Source of the DNA: Candidatus Margulisiibacteriota bacterium | GTDB taxonomy: Bacteria; Margulisbacteria; WOR-1; XYC2-FULL-46-14 | Assembly (NCBI GenBank): GCA_042563095.1 | Contig: JBHPMS010000003.1 | Span: forward strand, 1-53,687 | Direction of reading: 5' to 3' | Length of the DNA stretch: 53,687 nt | Shown here: piece by piece, positions 23,436 to 53,687 of the stretch | Numbering within the stretch: position 1 is the stretch's first letter | How the letters are laid out: the number at the start of each line of letters is the position of its first letter | Program-made: the position numbers and the translations under genes | Notes under the pieces: generated by a model | Told to the model about the DNA's origin: nothing | Databases searched by the model: none | The model's input: the letters and a program-made list of their open reading frames with translations, nothing else

Positions 23436-23445
23436 GTATTTTTCA

Positions 23446-23529
23446 TGCCGCTGGTCGGATTTGAACCGACATGAGGGTAAACCTCATTCGCTTTTGAGGC
23501 GAACGCGTCTGCCATTCCGCCACAGCGGC
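23446..23529 (-). tRNA. tRNA-Leu, anticodon CAA
   Basis: GCCGCTG/CAGCGGC acceptor stem; TTCGC-CTCAAAA-GCGAA anticodon arm. Confidence 0.95.
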
Positions 23530-23532
23530 AGT

Positions 23533-29411: not shown

Positions 29412-29412
29412 C

Positions 29413-33855: not shown

Positions 33856-33900
33856 AAAATATTATCGCATGATAATAATATAATTTCAGGGAAATTTAAA

Positions 33901-36501: not shown

Positions 36502-37264
36502 AAAGTTTGGGGTTTGGATATTGGGATTTGTTGTTTGTTTGGGCGTTGGGATTTGGACGTTGGAAGTCGCGGCCGTTGCAGGAGAGAAAGTCGAAACGAT
36601 ATTGAGTAAGATGGAAAGTGCTGGTGACTATAAGACGAATAAAGGTTCAGCAATCATGGAGATAATCAATAAAGACGGAGACAAAACTAGTATGCAGCTG
36701 GAAATGTACGAGGTGATGGGGGAGGGGGATGAGGACAAAAAATCGCTAATGCGTTTCACTGCTCCCGCTCGCTTGAAAGGCACTGCTATCCTCTCGGTCG
36801 GTGATAATATCTGGTATTACAACAATCGCACTAACCGGGTTCGTTTGCTCTCTTCTTCTGCCAAGAAAGGATCGATGATGGGATCGAGCTTTTCTTATGA
36901 AGATCTGTCGATGAGCTACGCAAAAGATTTTGTGGGGCAGATATTAAAAGATGATAAAAAGTCTTATCTTCTTAAAATATTCCCAAAAGATAAAAGTAAA
37001 ACTTATAAATATATTATTATGAAAGTCAGAAAAGCTGATTATATTACAGAGTATGCACAATATTATAAAGGGAAAGATCTAAAATACAAAGTGTTAACAT
37101 CGTTAGAAATAAAAAAAGTGGGTGGGAGGGTAGCTCCGATGAAAGTGACGATGAGAGATATTGAATCAAATAAGATTACAAACTTTATTATAGACGAGAA
37201 AAGGATTGAATATGATATTAAATTAGATGACTCGATCTTTTCGGAGAGAAACCTGAGAAAATGA
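36494..37264 (+). CDS. Outer-membrane lipoprotein-sorting (LolA-like) protein
   Basis: Start moved to ATG 36494 behind AGGAG; LMRFTAPARLKGTAIL, GSMMGSSFSYEDL. Confidence 0.8.
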   Translation: MFKKFGVWILGFVVCLGVGIWTLEVAAVAGEKVETILSKMESAGDYKTNKGSAIMEIINKDGDKTSMQLEMYEVMGEGDEDKKSLMRFTAPARLKGTAILSVGDNIWYYNNRTNRVRLLSSSAKKGSMMGSSFSYEDLSMSYAKDFVGQILKDDKKSYLLKIFPKDKSKTYKYIIMKVRKADYITEYAQYYKGKDLKYKVLTSLEIKKVGGRVAPMKVTMRDIESNKITNFIIDEKRIEYDIKLDDSIFSERNLRK

Positions 37265-38307
37265 AGATGTATCAAATCCGTTCATTCGTTGCTTATTCGT
37301 TGATAGCCTGTTTCTGGTGTCTTCCCGCAGGTGCTTTTGAAAGTGTAACCACCCTGGTTGGTAATTCTGCGCTTGCGGAAAAGGTTTCAGCTGGAGCGTA
37401 TGTCAGTGGGGATATTTGGCTTAAACACGGTTTGGCCGATCTGGATCTCTATTTCGAAAAAGACAAAGCTTGGCTAAATGTTGCTCAGCTAAAACTACAA
37501 ATTCTTGAAACAGATGTAACCATTGGCCGGCAGCAAGTAGGATGGGGAGTTGGTTTTCTTTTGAACCCGATCGATATGCTTAATCCGGTCCCGCTCGGAT
37601 CATCACTTGATCCAGCATATGTTCGGGATGGCAGGGATATTATTAAACTTGAGCGCTATTTTGGGAATTACACAAAATTAGAACTGCTCTATGCTGGTAA
37701 ATTTGAGAAGAGTTCGCAGAATTTTGATCATGACCTTGGAGTTAAATTGAAAGGAAGGCTTTTTGGATACGATACAGCGGTTTCTTATGTTGATAAAGGG
37801 GCCAGAAGTTTTTCTCTTATTCCTGAATTGGCGGATCAAGTATATGGATTAGAACTTTCAGGAACCCTTCCGTGGGAGTGGGGAGGATGGATAGAAGCAG
37901 CCCAATATGTAAAGCAGCAAAAAACAGATTATGTGCTTGGTACTGATTATTATTATGCTGATTACCATCTGGTTTTAGAATATTACAGGAATGGATTTGG
38001 CAGTGCTAACTCGAGTCTTTATGATTTAACTTTGCTTTTCCGCGGAAGGATGTTAGCTCAAGATTATTTAATGCCAACTTTAGTCTGGTCAGTAAACGAA
38101 AAACTTTCACTGACCAGCTTTAATCTCTATAATATGAACGATGCGTCGATGGCATTGGGCGGATTGATCGATTACTATCATAGTGATAATTTAGAATTTA
38201 TTATCATGCCGATTATTCTAAAAGGTGCCAATTCCACAGAATATGGCATGCAAAAACTATCTTATGGCCGCTACGCTCTTTCTGCTAAAGTTAAGTGGGT
38301 TTTCTAG
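37261..38307 (+). CDS. Putative outer-membrane beta-barrel protein
   Basis: IGRQQVGWGVG...NPIDMLNP; ends KWVF; third gene of the MMPL module. Confidence 0.65.
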   Translation: MKMYQIRSFVAYSLIACFWCLPAGAFESVTTLVGNSALAEKVSAGAYVSGDIWLKHGLADLDLYFEKDKAWLNVAQLKLQILETDVTIGRQQVGWGVGFLLNPIDMLNPVPLGSSLDPAYVRDGRDIIKLERYFGNYTKLELLYAGKFEKSSQNFDHDLGVKLKGRLFGYDTAVSYVDKGARSFSLIPELADQVYGLELSGTLPWEWGGWIEAAQYVKQQKTDYVLGTDYYYADYHLVLEYYRNGFGSANSSLYDLTLLFRGRMLAQDYLMPTLVWSVNEKLSLTSFNLYNMNDASMALGGLIDYYHSDNLEFIIMPIILKGANSTEYGMQKLSYGRYALSAKVKWVF

Positions 38308-41365: not shown

Positions 41366-41421
41366 AATTCCCTCCGATTTATATTTGATACATAATAGTA
41401 TAGCATATAGGTCAAGTCATT

Positions 41422-41508
41422 CGGAGGAGGGAGGATTCGAACCCCCGATGCTGTTTCCAGCATAGTCGCTTTCGAGGCGACCGCTTTCAACCACTCAGCC
41501 ACTCCTCC
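41422..41508 (-). tRNA. tRNA-Ser, anticodon CGA
   Basis: GGAGGAG/CTCCTCC plus discriminator G; GTCGC-CTCGAAA-GCGAC anticodon arm; long variable arm. Confidence 0.95.
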
Positions 41509-41522
41509 GGGTATCGAATAGG

Positions 41523-41542
41523 GTAGGTCTGTAAGCCGGGTT
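41523..41542 (-). ncRNA. rnpB: Isolated 3'-terminal fragment of RNase P RNA (probable att site)
   Basis: Minus strand reads AACCCGGCTTACAGACCTAC, matching the conserved rnpB 3' motif (AG/A)AACCCGGCTTA plus a P1 3' strand. The match stops abruptly and no upstream rnpB body follows. Confidence 0.55.
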
Positions 41543-41785
41543 AACTTTTAATAGAAAAACCTTAAATATTTCCTGTCAATTCGCCGGATTCTTTAGCTTT
41601 TCCCAACCCTTTAAAATTTTTACTCACCTAAACCTGCAATTTTATAACTATCGGAAAAAGCATTAAAAAATCCTTTTACTACAAGGATTATTACCATTTT
41701 ACAGGAAAGGCGTGATGCTGTAAAGAGATATAACCCCTGAAAACGCCCTGCAAAAAAAGAAACGCTATGATATTATATTTATGTT

Positions 41786-42445
41786 ATGAAAAAAAGCAAT
41801 CCAGGGAAAAACAAACAAACAATAAGTATTTTAGAGGAAAGCCCAAAATTTAAATCATTCTGCGAGGAAATAAGAAAAAAATGGGAAAAACATAAAGCGG
41901 CTATTTTTACTGGAACAGGGGATCTTGAATGGTATGATTCGATTTCATTGGGAAGGAATATTCCAATTGCTTTAATAAAAGATTTGTCTGAGATAAGGAA
42001 AGTCTTTGGCCTTGGACCTGAATGGGAACGCACTTTAATCCAATATATTTTTTATGGCGAACAATTACAGCCGCCATTACACCGATTTGACATTCATGGT
42101 GATTGGGTAAGAGGTGAAATTGTTTTAAGAATAGGACTTCAAACAACTAAAGAGGACATTAAGAACAATTTTTCGATAATAGAAGATTTTAAGCAACTGC
42201 TATTTAATAAAAGACGTGCTCTTATTAGAATGGCAAAAAACTTTGAGCGTGCCAAGAAAACATCTAAGTTGAAGAAGAAGGGTAAAACACACAAAACAAT
42301 ATTAAAGATAATTAAAGAGGATAATTTGAGCAGTGAAGAGCTTGGAACGGCACGAAGAAGGTATGAAAAAAAGATAACCGAAGGAAGTCCTACTCCAATT
42401 TTTCCCCCGCATCCTTCCATAATTACCGGACACGAGAATAGCTAA
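41786..42445 (+). CDS. Hypothetical protein (first ORF of the element)
   Basis: 219-aa basic ORF; no family recognised. Confidence 0.55.
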   Translation: MKKSNPGKNKQTISILEESPKFKSFCEEIRKKWEKHKAAIFTGTGDLEWYDSISLGRNIPIALIKDLSEIRKVFGLGPEWERTLIQYIFYGEQLQPPLHRFDIHGDWVRGEIVLRIGLQTTKEDIKNNFSIIEDFKQLLFNKRRALIRMAKNFERAKKTSKLKKKGKTHKTILKIIKEDNLSSEELGTARRRYEKKITEGSPTPIFPPHPSIITGHENS

Positions 42446-42486
42446 TTTCATGACCTGTCAATAATAAATCAATCCTTTAAAATCAT

Positions 42487-42521
42487 TACTGTGAGCCAAA
42501 AAAGGCCACAGTATTTTTTTT
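42487..42521 (+). terminator. Hairpin plus T-run just before the integrase
   Basis: TACTGTG(A)GCC-AAAAAA-GGCCACAGTA followed by a T tract. Confidence 0.6.
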
Positions 42522-42534
42522 AGGGGGAGAGTTA

Positions 42535-43422
42535 ATGTTATTCCAAGAAGCAGTAGAAAAATTCCTAGCCAATATTGAACTCGTCAGAAATTATTCGTGT
42601 GCGACTGTAAGATCTTATCGGAGTGATCTCTATTTATTTATCAGGTACTTATCTACCTTGGGAATATCTTTGCTTGAAGATGTCAATCGAGAAGTGGTTA
42701 TGCGTTTCCTTGCTGATCAGCAGGTTTTAAGCCCAAAGAAACCAGCAACAATTCGCAGAAGAGGGCATGCGATAGGGTCATTATTTAAATTCTGTTTATC
42801 TTGTGGACACGTTGCTCTAAATATTATGAATGGCATCGAGCTTCCGAAAAAGATTAGGAATATCCCTCGGATATTAACTGAAGTTGAGATTGAAAAATAC
42901 CTATTTACACCAATCATATACCGTAAATTCAAGTGGCTGATAAAACGGGACGAAGCTGTTTTGAAAACACTGTTGCTTCTTGGGATACGCTTGGCCGAAT
43001 TGTTGGGGATAAAGGTCACCGATATCGACTTTGTGAATCAGACAATAATTATAACAGGCAAGGGCGGCAAAGTGAGGATACTTCCATTGCCTTTAGTTCT
43101 ACTTAGATTGTGGAAGGAGTATCTTGATATGCGGCCAAGAGTGAAAACTGATAAATTATTTTTAGCGGCTAATGGTAGGAGAGCTTTAGGTCGAAACGGC
43201 CTCTACTCCCTGTTTTATAAGCACCTGAGGCGGTGTGGAATTGATCGGAAAGGCATTACGCCTCATAAGATGAGGCATACATGTGCCGTTCGGGTTTATC
43301 GAAAGAGCCACAATTTGTTGGCGGTTCAGCGATTGTTGGGTCATGCCAGCCTCTCGTCTAGTGAAATTTATCTTCAAATTAGTGACCCAGACTTACGTGC
43401 AGCTGTTGAAGGAGCTTTTTAG
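42535..43422 (+). CDS. Tyrosine recombinase/integrase (XerC/D-like)
   Basis: SAM-like N-terminus; GIRLAEL (R), GKGGKVR (K), HKMRH (HxxR), LLGHAS...EIY (H, Y). Confidence 0.93.
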   Translation: MLFQEAVEKFLANIELVRNYSCATVRSYRSDLYLFIRYLSTLGISLLEDVNREVVMRFLADQQVLSPKKPATIRRRGHAIGSLFKFCLSCGHVALNIMNGIELPKKIRNIPRILTEVEIEKYLFTPIIYRKFKWLIKRDEAVLKTLLLLGIRLAELLGIKVTDIDFVNQTIIITGKGGKVRILPLPLVLLRLWKEYLDMRPRVKTDKLFLAANGRRALGRNGLYSLFYKHLRRCGIDRKGITPHKMRHTCAVRVYRKSHNLLAVQRLLGHASLSSSEIYLQISDPDLRAAVEGAF

Positions 43423-43517
43423 CAATCAAAGGGGGTGTGCCATTAAGTAAAGGCAAAAAAGTATTAAAGGATGTTTAAGCGAGCAAGTGTTTCTTATTTT
43501 TAAAGGAGGGAACTTTT

Positions 43518-44102
43518 ATGACAGTTAGGAAGGGACTAAATTCATTTTCGGAGTCAGGGAAAGAAAGTAGTTGGATAAAATTGAGCTTGGGGGAAAAGAA
43601 AGATCTGCGTTTTGGCGAAAAGGCTGACGACATGCATATTCGCCCAAAACATTTCATTAAATTGAAAACATTCGCTGGCTCAATAAATTGCATGGCGGGT
43701 GTCGTGGATGGTAAAACGAGGGAGTGCTTATTATGCAAAAATGCATCTTCGGGTTGGGATGATCCTATTTCTAAGGCTGTGGATTATTTTGTAACCATTG
43801 TTTTGGATCGCAGCGATGGTCGGGCAAAATTCTACGAAGGGGGGTATTATGTGAGGAATAAATTAATGGAATTTTATAAAGTTAACGGAGACATCCGATT
43901 AATTGATTTTCAGCTATTCAGGCAAAAACAAAAAGGAGCTGGGACATGGAGCATGACTCCCCTTATTAATACTACCCGCCCGCTCAATGATGAAGAAAAA
44001 GATGAAATTGCAAAGCTAGATATTAAACAAGCTTTAAAAATGGGCTTTAAATCGATAGCAGAAATTGAGGAAATAATTAATAGTCTAAAATGTCAGCATT
44101 GA
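43518..44102 (+). CDS. Putative phage-type (gp32-like) ssDNA-binding protein
   Basis: WIKLSLGEKKDLRF...H...CLLC...VLDRSDGRAKFYEGG...DFQLFR...WSMTP pattern; resemblance only. Confidence 0.4.
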   Translation: MTVRKGLNSFSESGKESSWIKLSLGEKKDLRFGEKADDMHIRPKHFIKLKTFAGSINCMAGVVDGKTRECLLCKNASSGWDDPISKAVDYFVTIVLDRSDGRAKFYEGGYYVRNKLMEFYKVNGDIRLIDFQLFRQKQKGAGTWSMTPLINTTRPLNDEEKDEIAKLDIKQALKMGFKSIAEIEEIINSLKCQH

Positions 44103-44356
44103 AGGCCATCAGAAAGTATTGCACATGGTGCTGTTTTGGCCAACGAAAGGAAATTCGACTTTGCCCTATTGAAGATTGTTCGCTTTGGCATTTTCGGATG
44201 AAAAGAGGGCGACCAAGATTAAGGCTACTGCGTACTAAATGTCTTGATTGTTCTGGTAGAAAAAAGAAAGCAATACGACAATGTCCTTTTAACGGGTTGG
44301 AGAAAGATAAGTGCCCGATTTACGACCGCAGGATGGGCCAAAGGCCAAGGAGATGA
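44090..44356 (+). CDS. Small Cys-rich (Zn-binding) protein typical of mobile elements
   Basis: Two repeats of the AIRKYCTWC...CPIEDC / LRTKCLDC...CPF...KC motif. Confidence 0.65.
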   Translation: MSALKAIRKYCTWCCFGQRKEIRLCPIEDCSLWHFRMKRGRPRLRLLRTKCLDCSGRKKKAIRQCPFNGLEKDKCPIYDRRMGQRPRR

Positions 44357-44359
44357 AAT

Positions 44360-44581
44360 ATGACAAGAAGAAATGAAAACACTGGGAAACTAATTGATTA
44401 TTCGACTAGGTACTACGAGTGCATGGGATGTGGACAGCGGTGGATAGCAGCCCTTAAGGAAAAAAGAAAGCCTTTAATGATGTGCCCTAAGGGTTGCAGG
44501 CGGAGTAACTTACATAGAAACGGTTTATTGAATTTTCTTGATGAGGCTAAGCCGATTAAAAGCGAGGGCGGCCAAGATTGA
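44360..44581 (+). CDS. Small Zn-ribbon protein
   Basis: CMGC...CPKGC. Confidence 0.5.
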   Translation: MTRRNENTGKLIDYSTRYYECMGCGQRWIAALKEKRKPLMMCPKGCRRSNLHRNGLLNFLDEAKPIKSEGGQD

Positions 44582-44820
44582 GTACTTTCTGGAAAAACAG
44601 CCGTTTTCAAAGGGGAAAAATTTGAGAGTCATTGAAATGACCCCCTGCCCCTTATTAAAGCTGTCCCATAAAAAAACAGGCTCTCTGATGAATGGATTTT
44701 CTCAATGAACCGATTCTGGCAGGAATCTGTGACCCATAATACCGATGGCACCGAACTGCCAACCTTTTTCTGCAATCATCTAACTTTGTCCTTACCCAAT
44801 ACTTTACATTTTTCTATAAT

Positions 44821-44941
44821 TTTACTTTACCCTTTTTATATTTTACCTTTTTTTTATTTATTTTACCTTTTTTTATTTATTTTAACCTTTTTCTTTAGTT
44901 ACCCTTTTAAGTATTAAATATGATTATTAATAAAGGGTAAC
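44821..44941. repeat. Iteron-like AT-rich repeats (candidate replication origin)
   Basis: T(T/A)ACC(C)TTT cores with ACC at 44829, 44845, 44865, 44885 and 44901, plus an inverted copy TAAAGGGTAA at 44931-44940. Confidence 0.55.
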
Positions 44942-45024
44942 TAATAGTCAAATATTAGGCATACTTATGCCAAAAATGAGGTATACTTAAAATAGGGTGA
45001 TTAGCTTTTAGGAGGTCTTATCAG

Positions 45025-46449
45025 GTGGATATTTCAGTATCAGATGAGTTAGTGATCCCAGAGGATTATCAGTCGGTTGTGAAAAACATTGAGGCTGCAA
45101 GGAAGGCTAACCCGCCAAAAATAGAAATCCCGAAGAGTATAAAGAAAGTGGCAGCTCGCGATAAGAGACCAAATTATATAGCCGTTTTTGATGGTTTGGT
45201 TGATCTGGTATTGGATCAAGGACGCCCAGTTTTTTTAGTGAAAGAGGGAGGAGCATTAGAGCTGAAAGAAGAGGTTCAAATAAATGGCAAATTATATTAT
45301 CCTCCGCCTTTGGAAAAGATACTTTGGACAGTTCCAAGGGCTTCAGAAGTAGTCAAGCATTATGAATGTTATAGCAGGATATCTGAAGAACAAAGAAATA
45401 AAGAAATTTATCAGGAACTGAAAGAACATCACAGAAATATTTCAGAACTTCCAAGCGAAGCCCATTACGATCTCTTGGCTTCATGGGTCTTGCACACCTA
45501 CTTAATGGAAAGGTTTAATTATTCACCGATTTTATGTTTTTATGCGGTAGCCGAGCGAGGAAAAAGCAGAACAGGTAAGGGAATAAGTTATGTGGCATAT
45601 AGAGGGGTGCATTTACTTTCAGTCAGGGAGCATGAGATTTTTAGATTGGCACAACATTCTAACGCTTCACTTTTCTTAGATTGTATGGACATTTGGAAAA
45701 AAACGGAACGGGCAGGGTCAGAAGATGTAATACTCGGCCGTTTTGAGCGAGGAGCAAAAATAACCCGCATACTTCATCCTGACAGGGGAGCATTCAACGA
45801 TACAACCATCTATTACCCTTTTGGTCCGACAATAATTGCAACAAATGTTGAACCGCATAAAATTCTCGGGACAAGGGCAGTATCCATTAACATGCCGGAC
45901 AGCTCTAAAAAATTTAATAACGAGGTTAAAGAGGATTTGTTTTTACCGTTAAGGGAGCGTTTGACCGCCTTTAGGGCATTGAACCTTGATAAAGAGTTTG
46001 AGGTGATCGATAAGCCTGCGGATGGCAGATTGGGAGACATTCTTAAACCATTGTTCCTAATTATTCGATGGATTAGTCCCGAGAGAGAAAAAGACTTTCA
46101 TAATTTGATTAAAAGCATTCATCAAAAAAAGTTAATACTAAAAGCCGAAACCATTGAAGGACAAATACTATGTGTGGTCAGGGATTTACAAGACGTAGTT
46201 AATAAAGGCAGGGTAGCTGTTTCAGATATTACGAATAGGTTTAATGCGGACAAGTCAGAGCGGTCAAAAATTGATGTTAGGACGATTGGCAGGAAATTGG
46301 ATTCGTTGGGTTTTGACAAATTGAGCACCGGGAAAGGGACTTCTGCTATTTACTGGGATGAAGATAAGATTAACAAACTATTAGACTCGTATGGCTTGCC
46401 AAAAACCCAAGAAACCCAAGAAACCCCTGCAAAACAGGGGGGGGGGTAA
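45025..46449 (+). CDS. Putative replication protein with degenerate P-loop (DUF3631-like)
   Basis: LLASWVLHTY, AVAERGKSR, LFLDCMD, FGPTIIATN, winged-helix-like C-terminus, ETQETQETP tail. Confidence 0.55.
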   Translation: MDISVSDELVIPEDYQSVVKNIEAARKANPPKIEIPKSIKKVAARDKRPNYIAVFDGLVDLVLDQGRPVFLVKEGGALELKEEVQINGKLYYPPPLEKILWTVPRASEVVKHYECYSRISEEQRNKEIYQELKEHHRNISELPSEAHYDLLASWVLHTYLMERFNYSPILCFYAVAERGKSRTGKGISYVAYRGVHLLSVREHEIFRLAQHSNASLFLDCMDIWKKTERAGSEDVILGRFERGAKITRILHPDRGAFNDTTIYYPFGPTIIATNVEPHKILGTRAVSINMPDSSKKFNNEVKEDLFLPLRERLTAFRALNLDKEFEVIDKPADGRLGDILKPLFLIIRWISPEREKDFHNLIKSIHQKKLILKAETIEGQILCVVRDLQDVVNKGRVAVSDITNRFNADKSERSKIDVRTIGRKLDSLGFDKLSTGKGTSAIYWDEDKINKLLDSYGLPKTQETQETPAKQGGG

Positions 46450-46572
46450 CTGGGGTTTCTGGGGTATAGGGCGTTATAGTAAGGGGGGGCTGACACCTAA
46501 TACTCCTAATGATGATCTTGTGTGGTAAATGGCTGAAAAATAGAATTAGCAAATATAAGGAGGTAAAAGGTA

Positions 46573-47205
46573 ATGGAACAAAAAGTAGCACTGTACTGCC
46601 GCGTTAGTAGTAAGAAAAATCAACAGACAGAGCAGCAATTATCCGAATTACATAAATATTGTCGGTCTTCAGGATTTGACCAAGTTACAGAATATGTTGA
46701 TGAGGGGGTATCAGCATTTAAGAAGCTAAGGCCAGAGTTTACTAAATTAAAGAGTGATATTCGTAAGAGGAAAATAAACGTGGTAGTAATCTGGAAGTTA
46801 GATCGATTATCCCGGAGCCTAATTGAGTTAGTTACAACAATGGAGTTTTTTAGGGAATATGGTGTGAAGTTTGTTTCTTATAGCCAGCCCCTGGATACTT
46901 CTACCTCTACTGGAAAATTACTGTTTCACGTATTTAGCATGATTGCAGAGTTTGAGAGAAGCCTAATATCAGAAAGAACAAAGTTAAAACTAGCTTTATT
47001 AAAGGAGAAAGGAGTAAAGCTAGGGAGGCCAATTAAAACCGATGCAAAGGCTGTTTGCAACCTATTAGAGGAAGGTTTAACGAAAAGCCAGGTGGCTGCC
47101 CAACTTGGATGTAGTCGTATCACGGTATATCGGGCTTATAAGGCGTTTCAAAAAGGGTACCAAAAAACCCCTCATGAAAAAGCCGAATTACAGGGGGTTT
47201 CATAA
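46573..47205 (+). CDS. Small serine recombinase (resolvase/invertase)
   Basis: YCRVSS, KLDRLSRS, AEFERSLISERT, GRP, C-terminal HTH. Confidence 0.93.
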   Translation: MEQKVALYCRVSSKKNQQTEQQLSELHKYCRSSGFDQVTEYVDEGVSAFKKLRPEFTKLKSDIRKRKINVVVIWKLDRLSRSLIELVTTMEFFREYGVKFVSYSQPLDTSTSTGKLLFHVFSMIAEFERSLISERTKLKLALLKEKGVKLGRPIKTDAKAVCNLLEEGLTKSQVAAQLGCSRITVYRAYKAFQKGYQKTPHEKAELQGVS

Positions 47206-47340
47206 ATGGACGTTTATGAAACTACTAAAGATATTTCAGGGCTATAAAAAATAATGGTTGGTATTATGATAAAAATTCTTGGTTTTGTTTATAGGTTAAA
47301 GCAAACATTAATCAATTTGATGTAGCTAGGAGGTGAAAAA

Positions 47341-47643
47341 ATGGAAGAACCAGAGATAATATTTTCCTATACGTTGCAGGATGCAATTGATGACGGCGTA
47401 TTGGCAGAGGTCTTAAAGCATAGATGGCCAGAGCTAACAGGTGGAAAACCCTTAGTGGCTTCTGCAAAGATAATGAATCAGATCTCATTGGCTGGGATAA
47501 TTGAAATCTGGAATGAGTTTGTCCGATGGAGAGAAACTAATCCGGAAGATAAAACATTCTACAAGACTAAAATGAACGAACAGGAGGTATGGCTGATCGA
47601 AGACGGCCAAGCGTTGACCGTTATGTATCCATCCGATTATTAA
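47341..47643 (+). CDS. Hypothetical protein of a type seen in mobile elements
   Basis: FSYTLQDAIDDGVL...TVMYPSDY; GGAGG RBS. Confidence 0.65.
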   Translation: MEEPEIIFSYTLQDAIDDGVLAEVLKHRWPELTGGKPLVASAKIMNQISLAGIIEIWNEFVRWRETNPEDKTFYKTKMNEQEVWLIEDGQALTVMYPSDY

Positions 47644-47663
47644 AAAGGGAGGTGAAAAAAAAG

Positions 47664-47987
47664 ATGAAAAAGGTAATTTTAACTGGAAGGCTGGCGGCAG
47701 ATCCAATAGTTGGGTACACGAAAGAGAATGCGCCAGTTTGCAGTTTTGGTTTATCCGTTATGAGAAAGCCGGACAATAAAAAGATCGTAATGCGCTGTAC
47801 TGCTTTTGGTGGACTGGCTAAAGTTTGCGGCGAATATCTAGAAAAGGGCAGATTGGTGGCGATAGAAGGAAAATTGCAGGAGAAAAAGTGTGCAAAGAAA
47901 GCAAGACAGAAAAGCTCTCAGATTGAAATTGTGATTGAAAATCTTCAAATGCTGGACAGTAAGTTTTTTAAACAGAATAAAATATAG
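47664..47987 (+). CDS. ssb: Single-stranded DNA-binding protein lacking the acidic tail
   Basis: KVILTGRLAADP, LEKGRLVAIEGKLQ; start moved to ATG 47664 behind GGAGGTG. Confidence 0.85.
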   Translation: MKKVILTGRLAADPIVGYTKENAPVCSFGLSVMRKPDNKKIVMRCTAFGGLAKVCGEYLEKGRLVAIEGKLQEKKCAKKARQKSSQIEIVIENLQMLDSKFFKQNKI

Positions 47988-48131
47988 TATTTAATATTTT
48001 TATAATGGGAAGTCATGAAACTAGGTAATAAGACATGAAAACACTATTCATTGCTAATTTACTGTCGCACCAAAGTATTAATGTTACATTACAAAAGCAG
48101 GTGAATCATCGGCACGCAGGGGCGGTTTTTT

Positions 48132-49049
48132 CTAAAATTTGTAATTCAAAGCAAGAAGATAGGAGTTGCCTAACTCCTCATATGGAAGGTAGGCAAAATC
48201 AATTCTTAAGTTTTTACTGGGGTAAATGCCGCAACCCGCCCCGCAATTGCCGCCCGCTGAAAATTCGGACCGCGTATTATAGCCAAAATTAAAATAGAAA
48301 AGATCAATCTCATTATATTCAACGCCGATGTGATAAATCGGGATTTTCCCCGCTGTCATTTCCATATCAAGCGCGATCGTCGAAGTTACGTTCTGAAAAT
48401 CGAAGGCAAAATTAAGAACATCCTTGGTATAAGCCGTGCCAATGGTCAGGTTTTGAATCGGGCTGGAAAAGGAACTCATGAAATTTTTAGAGGAAACACC
48501 AAAAGCAATGTGCTCAGGTAGTTTTGGATGGGTAAAGTGAATCCCCGCGTCCAGAGAATAGTCGCTGCTAGTTGTATCATAAAGGGTTTCAGAAAAATAG
48601 TTTAAAACCAAGCCCGTGGAAACATATTTATTTATATTTATCGCATAACCGAGATTGAGCTGATCCGCGGTCGGTTGGAAGGTGTTCCCTGTCCCGGTTG
48701 GTTCAGATGTGGTTGTTTCAGTAAATACCCCGTACGATAAATGTTTTACCGCGCAGGCCCAGGAGGAAGATGAATTTACTTTATTCGTGTAAATCATGCT
48801 TCCCTGATAAATATCCTGAAGCCAGATCGTTTGGGTGAGGTAAAGCTGGCTGTTTTTAAGTTTCGCGATACCGGCCGGATTCCAGAACATTGTACTCGGG
48901 TCATCCGCAATCGCGACAAAAGTCCCAGCCATAGCCATCGGCCTTATTCCAAAAGGAATTTTTAGGAAAGCGTATTTTTCGGTTCCGGCTGCGTAAACTG
49001 CCGTGCTAAAGAGCAGGTAAAGCAGTATATAACAAAATATTTTCTTCAT
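48132..49049 (-). CDS. PorV/PorQ-family outer-membrane protein
   Basis: AFLKIPFGIRPMAMAGTFVAIADDPSTMFWNPAG; RIDFAY...LNYKF end. Confidence 0.8.
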   Translation of the reverse strand: MKKIFCYILLYLLFSTAVYAAGTEKYAFLKIPFGIRPMAMAGTFVAIADDPSTMFWNPAGIAKLKNSQLYLTQTIWLQDIYQGSMIYTNKVNSSSSWACAVKHLSYGVFTETTTSEPTGTGNTFQPTADQLNLGYAININKYVSTGLVLNYFSETLYDTTSSDYSLDAGIHFTHPKLPEHIAFGVSSKNFMSSFSSPIQNLTIGTAYTKDVLNFAFDFQNVTSTIALDMEMTAGKIPIYHIGVEYNEIDLFYFNFGYNTRSEFSAGGNCGAGCGIYPSKNLRIDFAYLPYEELGNSYLLALNYKF

Positions 49050-51679
49050 TGTATAATAATAAATTTCCCGGTCTTTTTGTAACTGGTTCCTTTTATCAAA
49101 TAAAAGTACACTCCTTCAACGCAAAGACTGCCGCCGTCATTTTTGCAGTCCCAGTTTAATTGCTGTGAAGAAGATGGATTGGTTAATGAACGCACCTGTT
49201 CACCGAGCAGTGTATATATTCTTATCACCTCGTCTCCGGAAAGGCCGATAAAATTTATGCCGGTTCCGGAACTGCTCCGGTAAGGCAGGGGATAAACAAA
49301 AATCGCGGAGGTCTGGCTTGTAATTGAAAAAGCTTCTGATTCGGCCTCGCTGATATTTCCGGCTAAATCTTCAGCGCAGAGTTTAATTTTGCATTTTGAG
49401 GAATTAACTTCGGGTACAGTCCAGCTGTATGACCCGCTATTTGATAAATCTGAAGCGATCAGAGTATAAGTCACACCGTTATCAGTTGAGTAATAAAGAG
49501 TAATCGGAGCGGTCGCCAGTCCCGCCTCTGAATCGCTGGCAGAATAGCTGATTGCGGCGGTGCTTCCCTTAAAAAACACTTTCCCTCCCAGGGTGGAGGT
49601 AATTGATGTGGTTGGAGAAGTTGAATCGGACAGGACACTTATTGACCCTGATTCGGCGGTAGCAAGGGTTCCGACTAAATCAACTGCAGTAATTTTTATT
49701 TTACAGGAATTTTCAGCAAGGTCTGGAACAGTCCAAGTATAGCTTCCGGTATTGGATTGGCTCGCGGCGATTGACGAATAATTAGCGCCGTCATCAACGC
49801 TGTAGTAAAGCGAGATAGGATTCGCGGCCAAGCCGACCGTGCCGCCGGAAGCCGAATAGCTGATTATGCTATTCCCATTTCGATAAATATCTGATCCAGT
49901 GGCGGGAGCAAAAAGAGAAACCGATAAACTTGACCCGCCTCCCATAGAAGCATAGACATCCGCCCGTCCGTAGCCGTATACGTTATCATAGCCGGATGAA
50001 CCAAGATCAACTGCGTTATTTAAAAGCAGATTTTTTACCTGGGTGTTGGTTAAACTTGTATTAGAACTCCAAATTAAGGCGGCCAGCGCCGCGACATGCG
50101 GTGCGGCGGCCGATGTTCCAGGGAATGGTGACACAAAGCCACCGTTGCCAGTTACAGTAATATTATCAATTCCGCAAATATCCGGTTTCTGGCGAAGCTC
50201 GTAAGAGGGGAAATCAATTCTTACTGGTCCTTGAGATGAATAGTTTTCAATCGCAGTAGGGAAAGAATGATCAATTGCTCCAACTGCGATTGCATTTTTT
50301 GCGGCTTGACTGCCGAAAACACTTCCGGCAGCAGAAGAATATTCATCGAAATCTGTACCAGAAATAAATAATTTTAATTGTTTATCATTTCCGGAATATT
50401 TTTTTACAACTAGGTAAGCATATCCTCCTGCACCATAATTTGTATAACTAATCATTTCTGTTGGATCATCAATCCCGTTTTGGATATTAACGGATGAAGA
50501 ATATTTGTAACTACCCGAGCTGTCAGTTAAATAGAGATCATAATCATTCCCTGAAGCTCCAAATTGGTCATTCCACTGTAAAAAAACCGTTACGGAAGAA
50601 TATGCTGGTATCCATATTCTATTATTCCAATCACCTGAACCAAAATTGTGAACAGTAGATGAATATCCTCCAATAGAATGAATCGTTCCAGAAAATACTC
50701 CTTCATAATATTCGTTATCAGCAAAATTCCCAGCCGCATTGAAATATAGCTTACCTTTATTGAATATAGAATCTTTTTTATTGTTTAGAGATCCATCTTC
50801 AAACATAGGTTCATCAAAAAAAGCTAAATCATCCACAATAATATTGCAGTTATAAGTTTCATCAAGTATTTGTATTGCATTTCGCATTTCTGCGGAAGTA
50901 TTGCAGTTTGAAAAAGCCAAGGATGCTCCCGGAGCAAGATCATGCACAATTTCCATCATAGCCAAACCTTCGGCATCATAAACACCGTTAAATATGTTTA
51001 GGTTCCCATCTGAACGCGCAGAGAGCGCTTCATAACTTAAAGGGATATCTCCAGAAGCTTGAGACGCGCTTATTCCATATATTCCAGTAGAAATCACGCC
51101 AACTTTAATCCCTGCGCCGGTATGGCCAAGATCAGAACGGACTGTGTCGGAGCGATGAATAGTGTCGCCTTCTGAAGTCACGCTTCCGGTTTGCGGAATC
51201 GCGTAGCCCGGAAGCCTAATATTTCTTACATAACTCTTTTTTGCCAGCTCTTCAACTTTGTCATAAGGTATCCATGCCTGGATTAAAGACATCGGTTCGG
51301 AAATTAAATCAACTTTACCTCCAAGACTAATAATATCCTGCGCAAGCTGTTCTTTATTAGAAGTATATTCGACATATAATTGGATTCTTCCGGAGGAATC
51401 AGTCTTCTGGAATTGATTGGAATATTTTACCGCGCTGGCTTGTACTGCCCCTCCCGCTTCTGGAGATATTTGTTCCGATAAAAATAAAACCGAGGTTCCA
51501 ATCTTTTTTTGCTGTTCGTTCAGCTTTTCTTTTTGCAGTTTTGCGAATATTTGCTGGCTTTTCTGGAATTCTGGTGAGGATGTGGAGAGAGCATCAAGAG
51601 AAAAGGCGGGGTTAATACCAAGAAGCAGAATTAGCCACAAAACACTTGCAAATAATATAAGAAAATATCGTTTTTTCAA
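49046..51679 (-). CDS. S8 subtilase-like protein with two Ig-like repeats and a T9SS-CTD-like C-terminus
   Basis: Signal peptide, pro-domain, NAAGN, GTSAAAPHVAA; two YYSxDxGxxY...GSYxWTVP repeats; FVYPLPY...IYTLLGEQV...WDCKN...GVYFYLI...GKFIIIQ. TTG start 51679 is preferred because the track ATG (51697) overlaps the -10 box. Confidence 0.8.
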   Translation of the reverse strand: MKKRYFLILFASVLWLILLLGINPAFSLDALSTSSPEFQKSQQIFAKLQKEKLNEQQKKIGTSVLFLSEQISPEAGGAVQASAVKYSNQFQKTDSSGRIQLYVEYTSNKEQLAQDIISLGGKVDLISEPMSLIQAWIPYDKVEELAKKSYVRNIRLPGYAIPQTGSVTSEGDTIHRSDTVRSDLGHTGAGIKVGVISTGIYGISASQASGDIPLSYEALSARSDGNLNIFNGVYDAEGLAMMEIVHDLAPGASLAFSNCNTSAEMRNAIQILDETYNCNIIVDDLAFFDEPMFEDGSLNNKKDSIFNKGKLYFNAAGNFADNEYYEGVFSGTIHSIGGYSSTVHNFGSGDWNNRIWIPAYSSVTVFLQWNDQFGASGNDYDLYLTDSSGSYKYSSSVNIQNGIDDPTEMISYTNYGAGGYAYLVVKKYSGNDKQLKLFISGTDFDEYSSAAGSVFGSQAAKNAIAVGAIDHSFPTAIENYSSQGPVRIDFPSYELRQKPDICGIDNITVTGNGGFVSPFPGTSAAAPHVAALAALIWSSNTSLTNTQVKNLLLNNAVDLGSSGYDNVYGYGRADVYASMGGGSSLSVSLFAPATGSDIYRNGNSIISYSASGGTVGLAANPISLYYSVDDGANYSSIAASQSNTGSYTWTVPDLAENSCKIKITAVDLVGTLATAESGSISVLSDSTSPTTSITSTLGGKVFFKGSTAAISYSASDSEAGLATAPITLYYSTDNGVTYTLIASDLSNSGSYSWTVPEVNSSKCKIKLCAEDLAGNISEAESEAFSITSQTSAIFVYPLPYRSSSGTGINFIGLSGDEVIRIYTLLGEQVRSLTNPSSSQQLNWDCKNDGGSLCVEGVYFYLIKGTSYKKTGKFIIIQ

Positions 51680-51688
51680 GGCAAATTT

Positions 51689-51717
51689 AGCATACATGTT
51701 GTATTTCGTATTGTCAA
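51689..51717 (-). promoter_or_regulatory. Sigma70 promoter for the subtilase-PorV pair
   Basis: TTGACA-17 bp-TATGCT. Confidence 0.65.
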
Positions 51718-51928
51718 TATCTTGTATTAAATTGTCGCACCAAATAATATGTTGTTTAGTATTATTAAAACGTTACACGTCTTATTGGGGGCAAGCCGAA
51801 ATAGAGATATTATGACCTCTTATGTAAAAAACAAAAGAGTGCTTGCTTACAACAACTGAGCTTGTATATTGAAAAAGTACAATGCAGCAATAATTTGTTT
51901 ATTCGGAATATTACAAAAAGGTATAACC

Positions 51929-52699
51929 TTATTTGTTTACATTATATTTTAACACATCAATGATCACATCAATGTCCTGTTTTTGATGTACAGGGTATCC
52001 GGTCCATTTTTGTGATTCGTCATAAGTGTAGATCATGAAGTGCTTTCTTCGTGGTGCAAAATATGAAAAAACTCTGCCTGAAATTTTAAGTGAAAGATCA
52101 TATTTTGTCGGTTCTATCAGGATGTTTTCAGTATCCCATTTTTTAATGTCTTCGAGAAGATTTGACATTAAGGTTCTTATCTTAGGATCGGTAATATAAT
52201 TTAATTTGTCGTCAATATTATAAGCTTTAACAATTTCAGGCACTGTGGGAATGCTGATCTCTGAAAAAACTATTGAGATTTCTTTTGGATTATCATCAAA
52301 GGCAATACATTTATACATAAAAAGTGAAATAGGTATATCTATCCATTTACATCTATTGATAAGAGCTTGAGAAAAGCTGGGGGCGATTAAAAAGAGACGG
52401 CTGTCTTGATTGGGGTCAATTTCATGTTTTTTATAAACCCTTGCAACACCTTCAACATTTTTGTTGGTATAGTCATAATAATCAATTCCCTGAAACAGCA
52501 TTGAATCGTCCTCGACTACTTTTAATTCCGCTACAACCAGAGCATGTCCGCTGTCAACCATAAGAAGGTCTAAAGGACCCCTGTCGGTTGATCTCTGGTG
52601 GTCTATATACTGCAAGCCGTCCTCAATCAGGTCTGTACCCTGTCTTATCAGGTCTTCTAATTGTTTTTCCGAAACTTCAACAGAATTGTATTTTTTCAT
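51929..52699 (-). CDS. NucS/EndoMS-like PD-(D/E)xK nuclease with extra C-terminal domain
   Basis: SEKQLEDLI, GPLDLLMVD...VVAELK...QGIDY; start moved to ATG 52699 behind GGAGAGG. Confidence 0.7.
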   Translation of the reverse strand: MKKYNSVEVSEKQLEDLIRQGTDLIEDGLQYIDHQRSTDRGPLDLLMVDSGHALVVAELKVVEDDSMLFQGIDYYDYTNKNVEGVARVYKKHEIDPNQDSRLFLIAPSFSQALINRCKWIDIPISLFMYKCIAFDDNPKEISIVFSEISIPTVPEIVKAYNIDDKLNYITDPKIRTLMSNLLEDIKKWDTENILIEPTKYDLSLKISGRVFSYFAPRRKHFMIYTYDESQKWTGYPVHQKQDIDVIIDVLKYNVNK

Positions 52700-52718
52700 A
52701 GTATCCTCTCCCCCCTTA

Positions 52719-52755
52719 CTAATCATTAAAGTGATTAGGGGTTGTCAGCTGACAA
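52719..52755. promoter_or_regulatory. Two operator-like inverted repeats between the nuclease and XRE genes
   Basis: CTAATCA-N6-TGATTAG (52719-52738) and perfect palindrome TTGTCAGCTGACAA (52742-52755). Confidence 0.6.
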
Positions 52756-52789
52756 TACATAAATTCAAGCGTACTGCTAATATTTTACT

Positions 52790-53026
52790 ATGTCAAGCGA
52801 CAACGAAGCTTTAAAGTATAGCAATATTGATCTGGGCAAACATATAACTAAATTGAGGAAAACCATTGGATATAGTATGTATCGGCTATCATTGGAAAGC
52901 GGGATAAGCAATAGTGTTTTAATGAGAATTGAAAAGGGAGAAAGAGAACCCAAAATAAACACGCTATTGAAGGTTATTGCAGGCCTAAATATTACCCCAT
53001 CAAAGTTTTTTGAAAAGTTTAATTGA
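52790..53026 (+). CDS. XRE-family HTH regulator (controller-protein-like)
   Basis: LGKHITKLRK...LSLESGIS...RIEKGEREPKINTLLKV. Confidence 0.88.
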   Translation: MSSDNEALKYSNIDLGKHITKLRKTIGYSMYRLSLESGISNSVLMRIEKGEREPKINTLLKVIAGLNITPSKFFEKFN

Positions 53027-53059
53027 ATTCTTTATTCCTGCCAAAACTTTACAACTTTC

Positions 53060-53317
53060 TTGTCGAAGGTTATAATAGTCAGTAGACACATAAAGGCTAG
53101 AATGAAGAAGAGTAAGAAAAAAAACAAAGAAAGCCATATTTATTCCTGTTCCGCCTGCGGCAGTAGTTCATTTATTCAGGAAGGCACTGCAAATTTCAAA
53201 GAAAAGGTCTCAATCTCTATTGGTAAGTCCGGCATGGTTGTTGAAGGTGGGGATCCCGTGCTGGACAATGTTGATTCAACAATTAAATGTGCTAAGTGTG
53301 GGGTTGAGGCGGTGTAG
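53060..53317 (+). CDS. Small Zn-ribbon protein
   Basis: CSAC...CAKC; true start may be ATG 53102. Confidence 0.5.
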   Translation: MSKVIIVSRHIKARMKKSKKKNKESHIYSCSACGSSSFIQEGTANFKEKVSISIGKSGMVVEGGDPVLDNVDSTIKCAKCGVEAV

Positions 53318-53334
53318 CTCCATAATATTATTTT

Positions 53335-53670
53335 ATGAGTATTTTTAACAAACAAACTGATCCCTATTACAATCTTCCCCTTAATATTGGAGAACCTGTT
53401 TTAAATACTCAATTCCCATGGGAAGATGTTGAATCCTCTATGAAAAACTTGGAATCGTTCGTTAAGGAAGTGGATCAGGATAAACATTTCTTAAAAAAAC
53501 TATTGGAGAAAAGAGTTGATTGCCCGAAATGTGAAAATAAGAACTTAGTGCCAATATATTTTAGAAGCCCTGAAGATACGTGGAGAGGGTTATATGGGAG
53601 AGCAGGGTGGCTATACATATGTCAAAAATGTAAAGAACAGGTCAGATTCTATCTCAAGAGTTTTAATTAA
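53335..53670 (+). CDS. Hypothetical Zn-ribbon protein
   Basis: CPKC...CQKC; FRSPEDTWRGLYGRAGW. Confidence 0.55.
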   Translation: MSIFNKQTDPYYNLPLNIGEPVLNTQFPWEDVESSMKNLESFVKEVDQDKHFLKKLLEKRVDCPKCENKNLVPIYFRSPEDTWRGLYGRAGWLYICQKCKEQVRFYLKSFN

Positions 53671-53687
53671 AGCAAGGGAAAGCAGTT

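What the first reader, a model, noticed from the sequence alone, without database searches (positions are those of the whole stretch)
41422..43422. Integrative element that appears to target the RNase P RNA gene
Seen: the element lies on the 5' side of tRNA-Ser, the wrong side for ordinary tRNA 3'-end integration. Between them, 14 bp from the tRNA, is AACCCGGCTTACAGACCTAC (minus strand), the conserved 3' end of rnpB cut off from the rest of the gene. Established: tyrosine-integrase islands typically duplicate the 3' end of tRNA or tmRNA targets. Inference: the native locus is rnpB-tRNA-Ser, and the integrase recombines within the P4 3' strand, leaving this displaced fragment here and a restored rnpB at the far end. 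This would be an unusual att target and would separate tRNA-Ser from its promoter; a TTGACA on the minus strand at about 41574-41579 might substitute.
Basis: partly seen in the sequence, partly recalled or inferred. Interest (0 to 1): 0.78.

Follow-up and report, generated by a model that had tools for sequence, protein, structure and literature searches.

The report
Mobile element inserted into rnpB gene
A mobile DNA element of at least 30 kb has inserted into the last ~20 bases of the essential RNase P RNA gene of an uncultured Margulisiibacteriota bacterium, replacing that end with its own copy; related elements in other metagenomes do the same, so this gene serves as a docking site much as tRNA genes do.

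Summary
The 20-mer beside tRNA-Ser(CGA) is the native 3' end of rnpB. It forms 10 Watson-Crick pairs with the 5' end of the genome's only rnpB, which lies on another contig (C2). That gene now ends in a different, element-supplied tail (7 WC + 2 G-U). The two share only AACCCGGCTTA, which contains the P4 3' strand.

In five relatives the genes flanking rnpB on C2 and the genes on the window side of the fragment sit on opposite sides of one intact rnpB. The intervening DNA, at least 29.7 kb, is therefore an insertion.

One Xer-like tyrosine recombinase sits at each end, facing inward: IntA next to rnpB and IntB in the window. The same layout occurs on single contigs in two other MAGs, with 27-nt and about 25-nt rnpB-tail direct repeats. 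All six IntA homologues of at least 58% identity abut rnpB. More distant relatives abut rnpB tails. 77 ordinary Xer-like genes do not.

The TTGACA proposed as a tRNA-Ser promoter is part of a conserved subterminal inverted repeat and is not supported as a promoter. No publication on rnpB as an att site was found. Read-level tests were unavailable.

The parts
41421..41509 (-). tRNA-Ser(CGA). This is the chromosomal gene immediately downstream of the displaced rnpB tail and lies outside the element.
   Evidence: ARAGORN; Rfam RF00005, 58.5 bits.
41520..41531 (-). Native rnpB 3' tail (CAGACCTACCCT), the P1 3' strand displaced by the insertion. It is the host side of attR.
   Evidence: It forms 10 of 10 Watson-Crick pairs with the rnpB 5' end AGGGTAGGTC on C2.
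41532..41542 (-). Core AACCCGGCTTA. This is the only block identical between attR (window) and attL (C2:17568-17578), so the crossover lay here. It contains the P4 3' strand CCGGCUU and the left half of the dyad GGC-T-TATA-G-GCC.
41546..53687 (.). The window's share of the inserted element. It continues off the contig end and resumes on C2:1-17551, up to rnpB.
   Evidence: Synteny. Element-type homologues shared with the G132 element extend as far as 52790-53026.
41569..41581 (-). Subterminal inverted-repeat arm AATTGACAGGAAA. Its partner TTTTCCTTGTCAATT lies about 38 nt inside attL on C2.
   Evidence: The same motif at the same offsets is found in G132, L085, L092 and L181. No promoter was called here.
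41721..41742 (+). Conserved box TAAAGAGATATAACCCCTGAAA upstream of ORF219-intB. [AG]TAACCCNNGAAA occurs exactly twice in the 1.0-Mb assembly, here and upstream of intA on C2 (17472, -).
   Evidence: The same box at the same 220-nt offset is present in G132, and a variant is present in L181.
41786..42445 (+). ORF219, a conserved accessory protein of the attR module. It has no Pfam or PHROG hit and a possible C-terminal LuxR/GerE-like HTH. It is a candidate DNA-binding or directionality factor.
   Evidence: 33% identity to G132 ORF205 at the same position. 35% identity to the L181 ORF207 that precedes an integrase beside an rnpB tail. Only 21 representatives among 1.8 billion proteins. AF2 pLDDT 79.8, with only weak HTH matches and no E<0.7.
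42535..43422 (+). IntB, a 295-aa Xer-like tyrosine recombinase adjacent to attR and transcribed inward.
   Evidence: PF00589 + PF02899. 38% identity to IntA on C2 and 45% to the G132 IntB. Its clade has 100/99 support and is sister to IntA, apart from the housekeeping Xer genes.
44833..44891 (+). Three tandem 20-nt AT-rich repeats just upstream of the helicase-like gene, a possible iteron-type origin.
   Evidence: the repeat finder family D1. The function is inferred.
45025..46449 (+). A 474-aa protein homologous to the C-terminal P-loop part of the G132 element's AEP primase-helicase. It is the likely replication protein.
   Evidence: BLASTP E=1e-11 to the G132 771-aa protein, which carries PF22548 AEP. 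L181 has a DnaG-type primase at the same position.
46573..47205 (+). Small serine recombinase (resolvase plus HTH).
   Evidence: PF00239, 3.5e-43. A resolvase is also present in the L085 element.
47589..47987 (+). Single-strand DNA-binding protein.
   Evidence: PF00436, 1.2e-21.
52790..53026 (+). XRE/Cro-type HTH regulator of the element.
   Evidence: 66% identity to a gene inside the G132 element.

Best explanation
A site-specific integrative element has recombined into the 3' end of the single-copy RNase P RNA gene. It may be composite, is at least 29.7 kb, and is split between contigs C23 and C2.

The element's attP mimics the last ~25-30 nt of rnpB: the P4 3' strand, a linker and the P1 3' strand. 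Crossover within AACCCGGCTTA left two products. The first is an intact rnpB whose last ~16 nt and a hairpin-plus-U-tract terminator come from the element (attL, on C2). The second is the native tail, stranded ~30 kb away beside tRNA-Ser (attR, in the window).

The element encodes two paralogous Xer-like tyrosine recombinases, one just inside each end and both facing inward. IntA is next to rnpB. ORF219-IntB is next to the displaced tail. It also carries a replication module, an XRE regulator, a resolvase and accessory or defence-type cargo.

Shown: the junction sequences, the synteny, the recurrence of the layout, and the family-wide association with rnpB. Inferred: that IntA and IntB together catalyse the reaction, in the manner of XerC/XerD, on the GGC-T-TATA-G-GCC dyad; that ORF219 and the subterminal repeats are accessory parts; and that the element can still excise.
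For: 1. The displaced tail pairs perfectly with the rnpB 5' end, whereas the resident tail needs two G-U pairs.
2. In G001, G002, G003, G006 and G011, homologues of the C2 genes (17932 onward) and of the window genes (28401-38307) flank one intact rnpB in matching orientation.
3. rnpB in 30 relatives has no integrase downstream. Only 2 of 146 phylum genomes carry the recombinase pair.
4. G132 (JBAZZP010000004.1) has, on one contig, rnpB-IntA(72%)...IntB(45%)-ORF205 followed by the rnpB tail. A perfect 27-nt direct repeat brackets 17.7 kb.
5. L085 has rnpB-IntA(61%)...second integrase, then a ~25-nt direct repeat, about 10 kb with a type III R-M system.
6. L092, L093 and L094 (71%, 58% and 58% IntA) all lie directly after an rnpB 3' end.
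7. More distant relatives sit at rnpB tails: L088 (two tandem tails), L089 (a ~200-nt rnpB 3' fragment, E=1.8e-7), L095, L102 and L181.
8. None of 77 other Xer-like loci of <=35% identity is near an rnpB motif.
9. The C2 dprA-like and PRTase genes are accessory. The true dprA is on C35, and the PRTase gene has no orthologue in 25 relatives.
10. The box [AG]TAACCCNNGAAA occurs only twice in the assembly, once at each element end.
11. The attL hairpin shows compensatory changes among four elements.
12. IntA and IntB form two well-supported sister clades, separate from the vertically inherited Xer genes.
Against: - C2 and C23 are not physically joined. No contig-end overlap was found, and the MAG is only 52% complete. 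The interior is therefore incomplete, and a single element cannot be distinguished from a tandem or nested array.
- The insertion contains two IS elements, an integrase fragment and a third integrase, so it is at least partly composite.
- No relative shows the exact empty junction rnpB-tRNA-Ser.
- A metagenome scan for the native tail found nothing.
- In L085 the tail resident in the gene pairs slightly better than the displaced one, so the P1 argument does not hold in every instance.
Confidence: 0.88

Rival explanations
1. The insertion is a tandem or nested array of at least two independent rnpB-targeting elements, an 'IntA element' and an 'IntB element', and not one element with two recombinases. 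Each integrase would then work alone as a homotetramer.
For: L088 shows true tandem rnpB-tail repeats, each with an adjacent integrase. The G000 insertion is large and mosaic, with IS elements and extra integrases. In the distant relative L095, an IntB-like gene occupies the rnpB-proximal position.
Against: G132 and L085 have only two core copies, bracketing both integrases, on single contigs. The IntA/IntB pairing recurs with different cargo. The same ATAACCC box and the same subterminal inverted repeat occur at both ends. IntA and IntB are sister clades.
Confidence: 0.2
2. The locus is a fossil. The element integrated long ago and is now immobile, so the fragment is only a scar and the recombinases now do something else or are decaying.
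For: IS insertions and an integrase fragment lie inside the insertion. The element tail and the native tail have diverged. There is no evidence of excision.
Against: Both recombinase ORFs are full length, and I read the catalytic R-K-H-R-H-Y positions as present (sequences). The terminal motifs are intact and match those of other elements. The distribution is sporadic, 2 of 146 genomes, which argues for recent mobility of the family.
Confidence: 0.3
3. The result is an assembly or binning artefact. C2 and C23 would come from different organisms or strains, and the fragment would be unrelated to the C2 rnpB.
For: The genome is a 52%-complete MAG of 80 contigs, and the contigs do not overlap.
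Against: The fragment is exactly complementary to the 5' end of this rnpB. Both contigs are syntenic with the same rnpB neighbourhood of the same-family genomes at 50-88% protein identity. Contamination is estimated at 0.01. The rare box motif is shared by the two ends.
Confidence: 0.04

Closest known systems
Genomic islands, prophages and satellites integrated in the 3' ends of tRNA and tmRNA genes by tyrosine integrases (Islander/TIGER-class islands; Williams 2002, from my own knowledge; PMC12424338 for the database)
   Same: A tyrosine recombinase sits next to the att site. The direct repeat is the 3' part of a structural RNA gene. The element carries a replacement 3' end, so the essential gene stays intact. 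The distribution among relatives is sporadic. The cargo is of accessory and defence type.
   Different: The target is rnpB, with the crossover in or next to the universally conserved P4 3' strand. PMC12424338 classifies integration sites only as tRNA/tmRNA genes, coding sequences or intergenic. Seven literature searches found no report of rnpB as an att site. The recombinases are short Xer-type proteins of ~295 aa. From size and Pfam architecture I infer that they lack an arm-binding N-domain. There are two of them, one at each end.
XerC/XerD-dif chromosome dimer resolution, and the IMEX elements that exploit it (own knowledge)
   Same: Two paralogous ~295-aa recombinases with SAM_1 + Phage_integrase architecture. 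The core site has dyad symmetry around a short central region.
   Different: The pair is encoded by the element, lies outside the vertically inherited Xer clade, and is absent from most relatives. The site is the rnpB 3' end, not dif. IMEXs carry no recombinase of their own. Heteromeric action here is inferred, not shown.
Tn554-type elements that need two tyrosine recombinases (TnpA and TnpB) for site-specific insertion (own knowledge)
   Same: More than one tyrosine recombinase per element, and a highly site-specific target.
   Different: In Tn554 the genes are adjacent at one end, the target is a protein-coding region, and no duplicated gene end restores the target. Here the genes are at opposite ends and convergent.
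Tandem island arrays behind the tmRNA gene
   Same: A single-copy structural RNA gene acts as a repeated landing pad. L088 shows two tandem rnpB tails.
   Different: The target gene and the recombinase clade differ.

Membership tests
Bacterial RNase P RNA, type A (RF00010): the C2 gene and the window fragment | A covariance-model match above the gathering score over the full model | tested here: met
   C2:17552-17896(-) scores 257.9 bits against a cut-off of 100, over model positions 1-367. The window itself has no match, because only the last ~23 nt are present.
Bacterial RNase P RNA, type A (RF00010): the C2 gene and the window fragment | The P1 helix is formed between the 5' and 3' ends | tested here: met
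   The displaced tail gives 10 WC pairs. The resident tail gives 7 WC + 2 G-U.
Integrative elements at the 3' ends of structural RNA genes (tRNA/tmRNA-island class) | Direct repeats made of the 3' part of the RNA gene flank the element | tested here: met
   G000 has an 11-nt identical core plus similar tails on two contigs. G132 has a 27-nt perfect repeat. L085 has a ~25-nt repeat with 2 mismatches.
Integrative elements at the 3' ends of structural RNA genes (tRNA/tmRNA-island class) | A tyrosine integrase is encoded next to an att junction | tested here: met
   IntB lies about 1 kb from attR. IntA lies about 130 nt from attL.
Integrative elements at the 3' ends of structural RNA genes (tRNA/tmRNA-island class) | The insertion is absent from related genomes, with the flanks contiguous | tested here: met
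   Synteny in five relatives. No integrase lies behind rnpB in 30 relatives. The exact rnpB-tRNA-Ser junction was not seen.
Integrative elements at the 3' ends of structural RNA genes (tRNA/tmRNA-island class) | The target is a tRNA or tmRNA gene | tested here: not met
   The target is rnpB. The adjacent tRNA-Ser is intact and lies outside the repeat.
Integrative elements at the 3' ends of structural RNA genes (tRNA/tmRNA-island class) | Excision to a circle with attP and a restored attB | not testable with these tools
The metagenome scan for the native junction gave 0 hits.
Housekeeping XerC/XerD | SAM-like N-domain plus tyrosine-recombinase catalytic domain, ~300 aa | tested here: met
   PF02899 + PF00589 in both IntA and IntB.
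Housekeeping XerC/XerD | Vertically inherited orthologue present in nearly all relatives | tested here: not met
   IntA and IntB form clades of their own, outside the group that tracks host taxonomy. The pair is present in only 2 of 146 phylum genomes. G132 has two further Xer-like genes elsewhere.
Housekeeping XerC/XerD | Acts at a dif site | not tested
   No dif search was made. The junctions here are rnpB sequence.
IMEX (elements that exploit host Xer) | The element lacks its own recombinase and integrates at dif | tested here: not met
   The element encodes two recombinases, and the site is rnpB.
Temperate phage | Virion structural and packaging genes | tested here: not met
   No capsid, terminase or tail hits in Pfam or PHROGs among the ORFs scanned. 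No phage relative of IntA above 35% identity. The interior of the element is incomplete.

The most novel reading that the evidence does not exclude
A clade of mobile elements, apparently undescribed, uses a dedicated element-encoded pair of Xer-like tyrosine recombinases placed at opposite ends and facing inward. The pair would act as a heteromer on a dyad (GGC-T-TATA-G-GCC) that overlaps the catalytic-core P4 3' strand of RNase P RNA. That sequence is nearly invariant across Bacteria, so it would give the elements a near-universal landing site. The elements also re-terminate rnpB with their own hairpin and co-regulate both recombinase operons through a shared ATAACCC box.
Probability: 0.4. 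Interest if true: 0.8.

Novelty: new variant of a known kind. Interest (0 to 1): 0.66.

Why it matters
In the sources I checked, tRNA and tmRNA genes are the recognised RNA-gene docking sites for integrative elements. The Islander island finder is limited to tRNA and tmRNA genes (PMC12424338).

This locus, together with at least eight related loci found here, shows that the single-copy essential ribozyme gene rnpB is used in the same way. The crossover falls in or beside the P4 strand, one of the most conserved sequences in bacteria. Such a site could give a broad potential host range.

Three practical points follow. Island finders could add rnpB as a target. The integrases are candidates for a 'safe-harbour' integration tool aimed at a site present in nearly every bacterium. 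The paired, end-located Xer-like recombinases raise a testable question about heteromeric integrases.

The insertion also changes how an essential RNA is terminated. It cuts the neighbouring tRNA-Ser off from whatever promoter it used before.

Tried and rejected
- Looked for a second core copy or direct repeat inside the window. There was none.
- Looked for contig-end overlaps joining C23 to C2. There were none.
- Scanned metagenome contigs for the native tail 20-mer to find empty sites. 0 hits.
- Looked for rnpB followed by tRNA-Ser in 30 relatives. There was none.
- Considered that C2:1-3319 (dprA-like, PRTase, tRNA-Asn) is chromosomal, which would imply a rearrangement. I rejected this because the true dprA is on C35 and the PRTase gene has no orthologue in relatives.
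It was not called by the scan and is better explained as part of a conserved inverted repeat. Another promoter-like site at 41724->41696(-) scores 10/12, but the number of such sites is no higher than in shuffles.
- DNA similarity between the two element halves is nil apart from the att sites.
- The genome-contig scan with the IntA alignment recovered only G132.
- The phage collection has only <=35% Xer-like hits.
- ORF219 has no Pfam or PHROG hit, and the fold search gave no match with E<0.7.
- L102's integrase is split by a stop or frameshift, so I did not pursue it.
- Seven literature searches found no report of rnpB as an att site.
Full report
**1. The observation**

tRNA-Ser(CGA) lies on the minus strand at 41421-41509. 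The 20-mer AACCCGGCTTACAGACCTAC sits 13-14 nt upstream of its 5' end, at 41523-41542(-). It is unique in the window even with three mismatches allowed, and no shuffle produced a match.

A 295-aa tyrosine recombinase (PF00589 + PF02899) is encoded at 42535-43422(+), on the 5' side of the tRNA. The window contains no RNase P RNA gene.

**2. Where rnpB is**

The window is the whole of contig C23 of an 80-contig, 1.0-Mb, 52%-complete MAG. The only RF00010 match is on contig C2:17552-17896(-), at 257.9 bits.

- Its 3' end reads ...ACAGAACCCGGCTTA-TAGGCCTGCCCGCCTG.
- The window fragment reads ...GTTAACCCGGCTTA-CAGACCTACCCT.
- Only AACCCGGCTTA is shared. From established knowledge of the RNase P RNA structure, CCGGCUU is the 3' strand of helix P4, so this block contains it.

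The rnpB 5' end is AGGGTAGGTC. The displaced tail GACCTACCCT pairs with it in 10 of 10 Watson-Crick pairs. The tail now in the gene gives 7 WC + 2 G-U. The window fragment is therefore the tail that co-evolved with this gene. The resident tail is identical to the rnpB tail of other lineages such as G003 and G132, as expected for a copy brought in by a mobile element.

**3. The two contigs were once neighbours**

I compared three same-family genomes (G001-G003) and two same-order genomes (G006, G011).

- Homologues of the C2 genes from 17932 onward lie on the 5' side of rnpB.
- Homologues of the window genes 28401-38307 lie on its 3' side.
- Strands match, and protein identity is 50-88%.

The ancestral order was therefore C23(+)...[tail] | rnpB body - C2 17932 onward. 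Everything between is inserted: C23:41546-53687, an unknown gap, and C2:1-17551. That is at least 29.7 kb.

The distal C2 genes are not chromosomal. The dprA-like gene is a divergent second copy (33-37% identity to relatives), while the true orthologue (60-75%) is on C35. The adjacent PRTase/zinc-ribbon gene has no orthologue in 25 relatives.

None of 30 relatives has an integrase or a tRNA-Ser directly after rnpB. The exact rnpB-tRNA-Ser junction is therefore inferred, not observed.

**4. Anatomy of the element**

Directly after rnpB on C2, on the same strand, is a 296-aa Xer-like recombinase, IntA (16531-17421). It is 38% identical over its full length to the window enzyme, IntB. The two face inward from opposite ends.

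Contents of the window part:
- ORF219, an orphan (41786-42445)
- IntB
- small orphan ORFs
- three 20-nt tandem repeats (44833-44891)
- a 474-aa protein that matches the P-loop half of a primase-helicase
- a serine resolvase and an SSB
- a PorV-like protein and an S8 peptidase with a T9SS signal
- an XRE regulator at 52790-53026

Contents of the C2 part:
- two IS elements
- an integrase fragment
- a staphylococcal-nuclease homologue
- HTH proteins
- a third integrase of 362 aa
- the dprA-like/PRTase pair
- a tRNA-Asn

The insertion is thus at least partly mosaic.

**5. The same element on single contigs elsewhere**

G132 is JBAZZP010000004.1, a Ca. Margulisiibacteriota MAG of another family. 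Its layout is:
- rnpB(-) at 100904-101342 (244 bits)
- IntA (72% identity) directly downstream
- IntB (45% identity) about 15 kb further on, at 84200-85084(+), preceded by an ORF219 homologue (33% identity)
- the rnpB tail

A perfect 27-nt direct repeat, AATCCGGCTTATAGGCCTGCCCTTTTT, brackets 17.7 kb. Its cargo includes an AEP primase-helicase, a WYL regulator and an OLD-family nuclease.

L085 (GCA_964546385.1) has:
- rnpB (191 bits)
- IntA (61% identity)
- a resolvase and a type III R-M system
- a second, inward-facing integrase whose best match is IntB (37.5% identity to the G132 IntB)
- a second tail copy, AACCCGGCTTAT..GCTTGCCCCCT

The two tail copies are about 10 kb apart.

**6. Family-wide association with rnpB**

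| Group | Loci | Result |
|---|---|---|
| IntA homologues at >=58% identity | G000, G132, L092, L085/L086, L093, L094 | All six lie 110-130 nt after an rnpB 3' end on the same strand |
| Relatives at 36-41% identity | L088 | Two tandem tails, AATCCGGCTTACGGGCTAGTTGTCACT, each with an integrase |
| | L089 | A ~200-nt rnpB 3' fragment (RF00010 E=1.8e-7); the island carries ThsB-TIR, Dcm and Vsr genes |
| | L095 | rnpB, then an integrase, then a convergent second integrase |
| | L102 | Integrase next to an rnpB tail |
| ORF219 homologue | L181 | Tail, TTGTCAA motif, box, ORF207, integrase and DnaG primase, in the window's order |
| Control: other Xer-like loci at <=35% identity | 77 loci from the same metagenome scan | None is near an rnpB motif |

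In a maximum-likelihood tree, IntA (100/98) and IntB (100/99) are sister clades (89/89). They stand apart from the Xer genes that follow host taxonomy. Only 2 of 146 phylum genomes carry the pair.

**7. att-site features**

Aligned junctions show a dyad, GGC-T-TATA-G-GCC, centred just 3' of the P4 strand.

About 32 nt to the left and about 38 nt to the right of the core lie inverted repeats, AATTGACA(A)GGAAA. These are conserved in G000, G132, L085, L092 and L181.

On the attL side, this repeat forms the apical stem of a long hairpin followed by a U-tract.
- The predicted folding energy is -24 to -35 kcal/mol.
- The outer stem shows compensatory changes among four elements.
- This is a plausible element-supplied terminator for rnpB.

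A box, AAAG..(C/T)ATAACCC..GAAA, precedes intA in six loci. It also precedes ORF219/205-intB at the same 220-nt offset in G000 and G132. In the whole assembly, [AG]TAACCCNNGAAA occurs exactly twice, once at each element end.

**8. Mechanism, and how sure each step is**

- Integration by site-specific recombination in the rnpB 3' end, with the gene restored by the element's copy, is strongly supported. I put it at about 0.9.
- IntA and IntB acting together as a XerC/XerD-like heteromer on the dyad is an inference. It rests on their constant pairing, their sister-clade relationship, their Xer-type size and architecture, and the symmetric site. I put it at about 0.4-0.45. A tandem or independent-element reading is the main rival.
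- ORF219 is a rare family, with 21 representatives among 1.8 billion proteins. The AF2 model is confident (pLDDT 79.8). The fold search found only weak, local LuxR/GerE-type HTH resemblance at the C-terminus. A role as a DNA-binding accessory or directionality factor is a guess.

**9. The tRNA-Ser promoter idea**

The insertion does separate tRNA-Ser from rnpB, and from any promoter the two once shared. The TTGACA at 41574-41579(-) has no -10 partner at 16-18 nt in the scan. It belongs to the conserved inverted repeat, which is also present in elements that have no downstream tRNA. A 10/12 promoter-like site lies at 41724->41696(-), but the number of such sites is no higher than in shuffles. 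The question remains open.

**10. Comparison with what is known, and novelty**

The logic is that of tRNA/tmRNA-gene islands. The target gene and the paired, end-located Xer-like recombinases are different.

Seven full-text searches found no paper describing rnpB as an attachment site. The TIGER/Islander resource reports only tRNA/tmRNA, CDS and intergenic classes.

Earlier notes from this scan report rnpB-targeting elements in other phyla, and in one case a convergent Xer-like pair. I reached the same layout from G132 and L085 before reading those notes. They are unreviewed AI notes, so I treat them as leads only.

I class this finding as a new variant of a known kind.

Noticed in passing
G000 contig C2:876-948 (+), off-window: The only tRNA-Asn(GTT) found in this 52%-complete MAG lies inside the inserted region. 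It sits beside the accessory dprA-like/PRTase pair and a 362-aa integrase. It may be element-borne, or it may mark a nested element.
   Followed up: partly
G000 contig C2:1068-3319 (-), off-window: A divergent DprA/SLOG-like protein is directly followed by a 436-aa phosphoribosyltransferase with zinc ribbons. The second gene has no orthologue in 25 relatives. The pair looks like a two-gene conflict or defence module.
   Followed up: partly
window 48132-51697 (-): A PorV/FadL-like outer-membrane protein and an 883-aa S8 peptidase with Ig-like domains and a CHU_C type IX secretion signal lie within the inserted region. A paralogous stretch is on contig C56 (80% DNA identity over 99 nt).
   Followed up: no
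window 44833-44891: Three tandem 20-nt AT-rich repeats (TTTTTATATTTTACCTTTTT) lie just upstream of the helicase-like gene. They are a possible iteron origin.
   Followed up: no
window 41604-41624 and 42470-42490: Two 21-nt direct repeats, CAA(C/T)CCTTTAAAAT..TTACT (86% identity), flank ORF219. They may be protein-binding sites in the attR arm.
   Followed up: no
L095 100-175: In a GC-rich metagenome contig, the rnpB tail GGCTTATATGCCC is followed about 40 nt later by its exact reverse complement, GGGCATATAAGCC. An integrase and a convergent second integrase come next. This is a long inverted repeat at the att site.
   Followed up: no
L088 (Logan contig from SRR24035588): Two rnpB-tail repeats 8.6 kb apart, neither preceded by an rnpB body, with three integrases on a 10.4-kb contig. 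This is a tandem array of rnpB-targeting elements.
   Followed up: partly
The tRNA-Leu genes at 20956-21039, 23354-23435 and 23445-23530 are confirmed by ARAGORN and Rfam. I did not examine the overlap.
   Followed up: no
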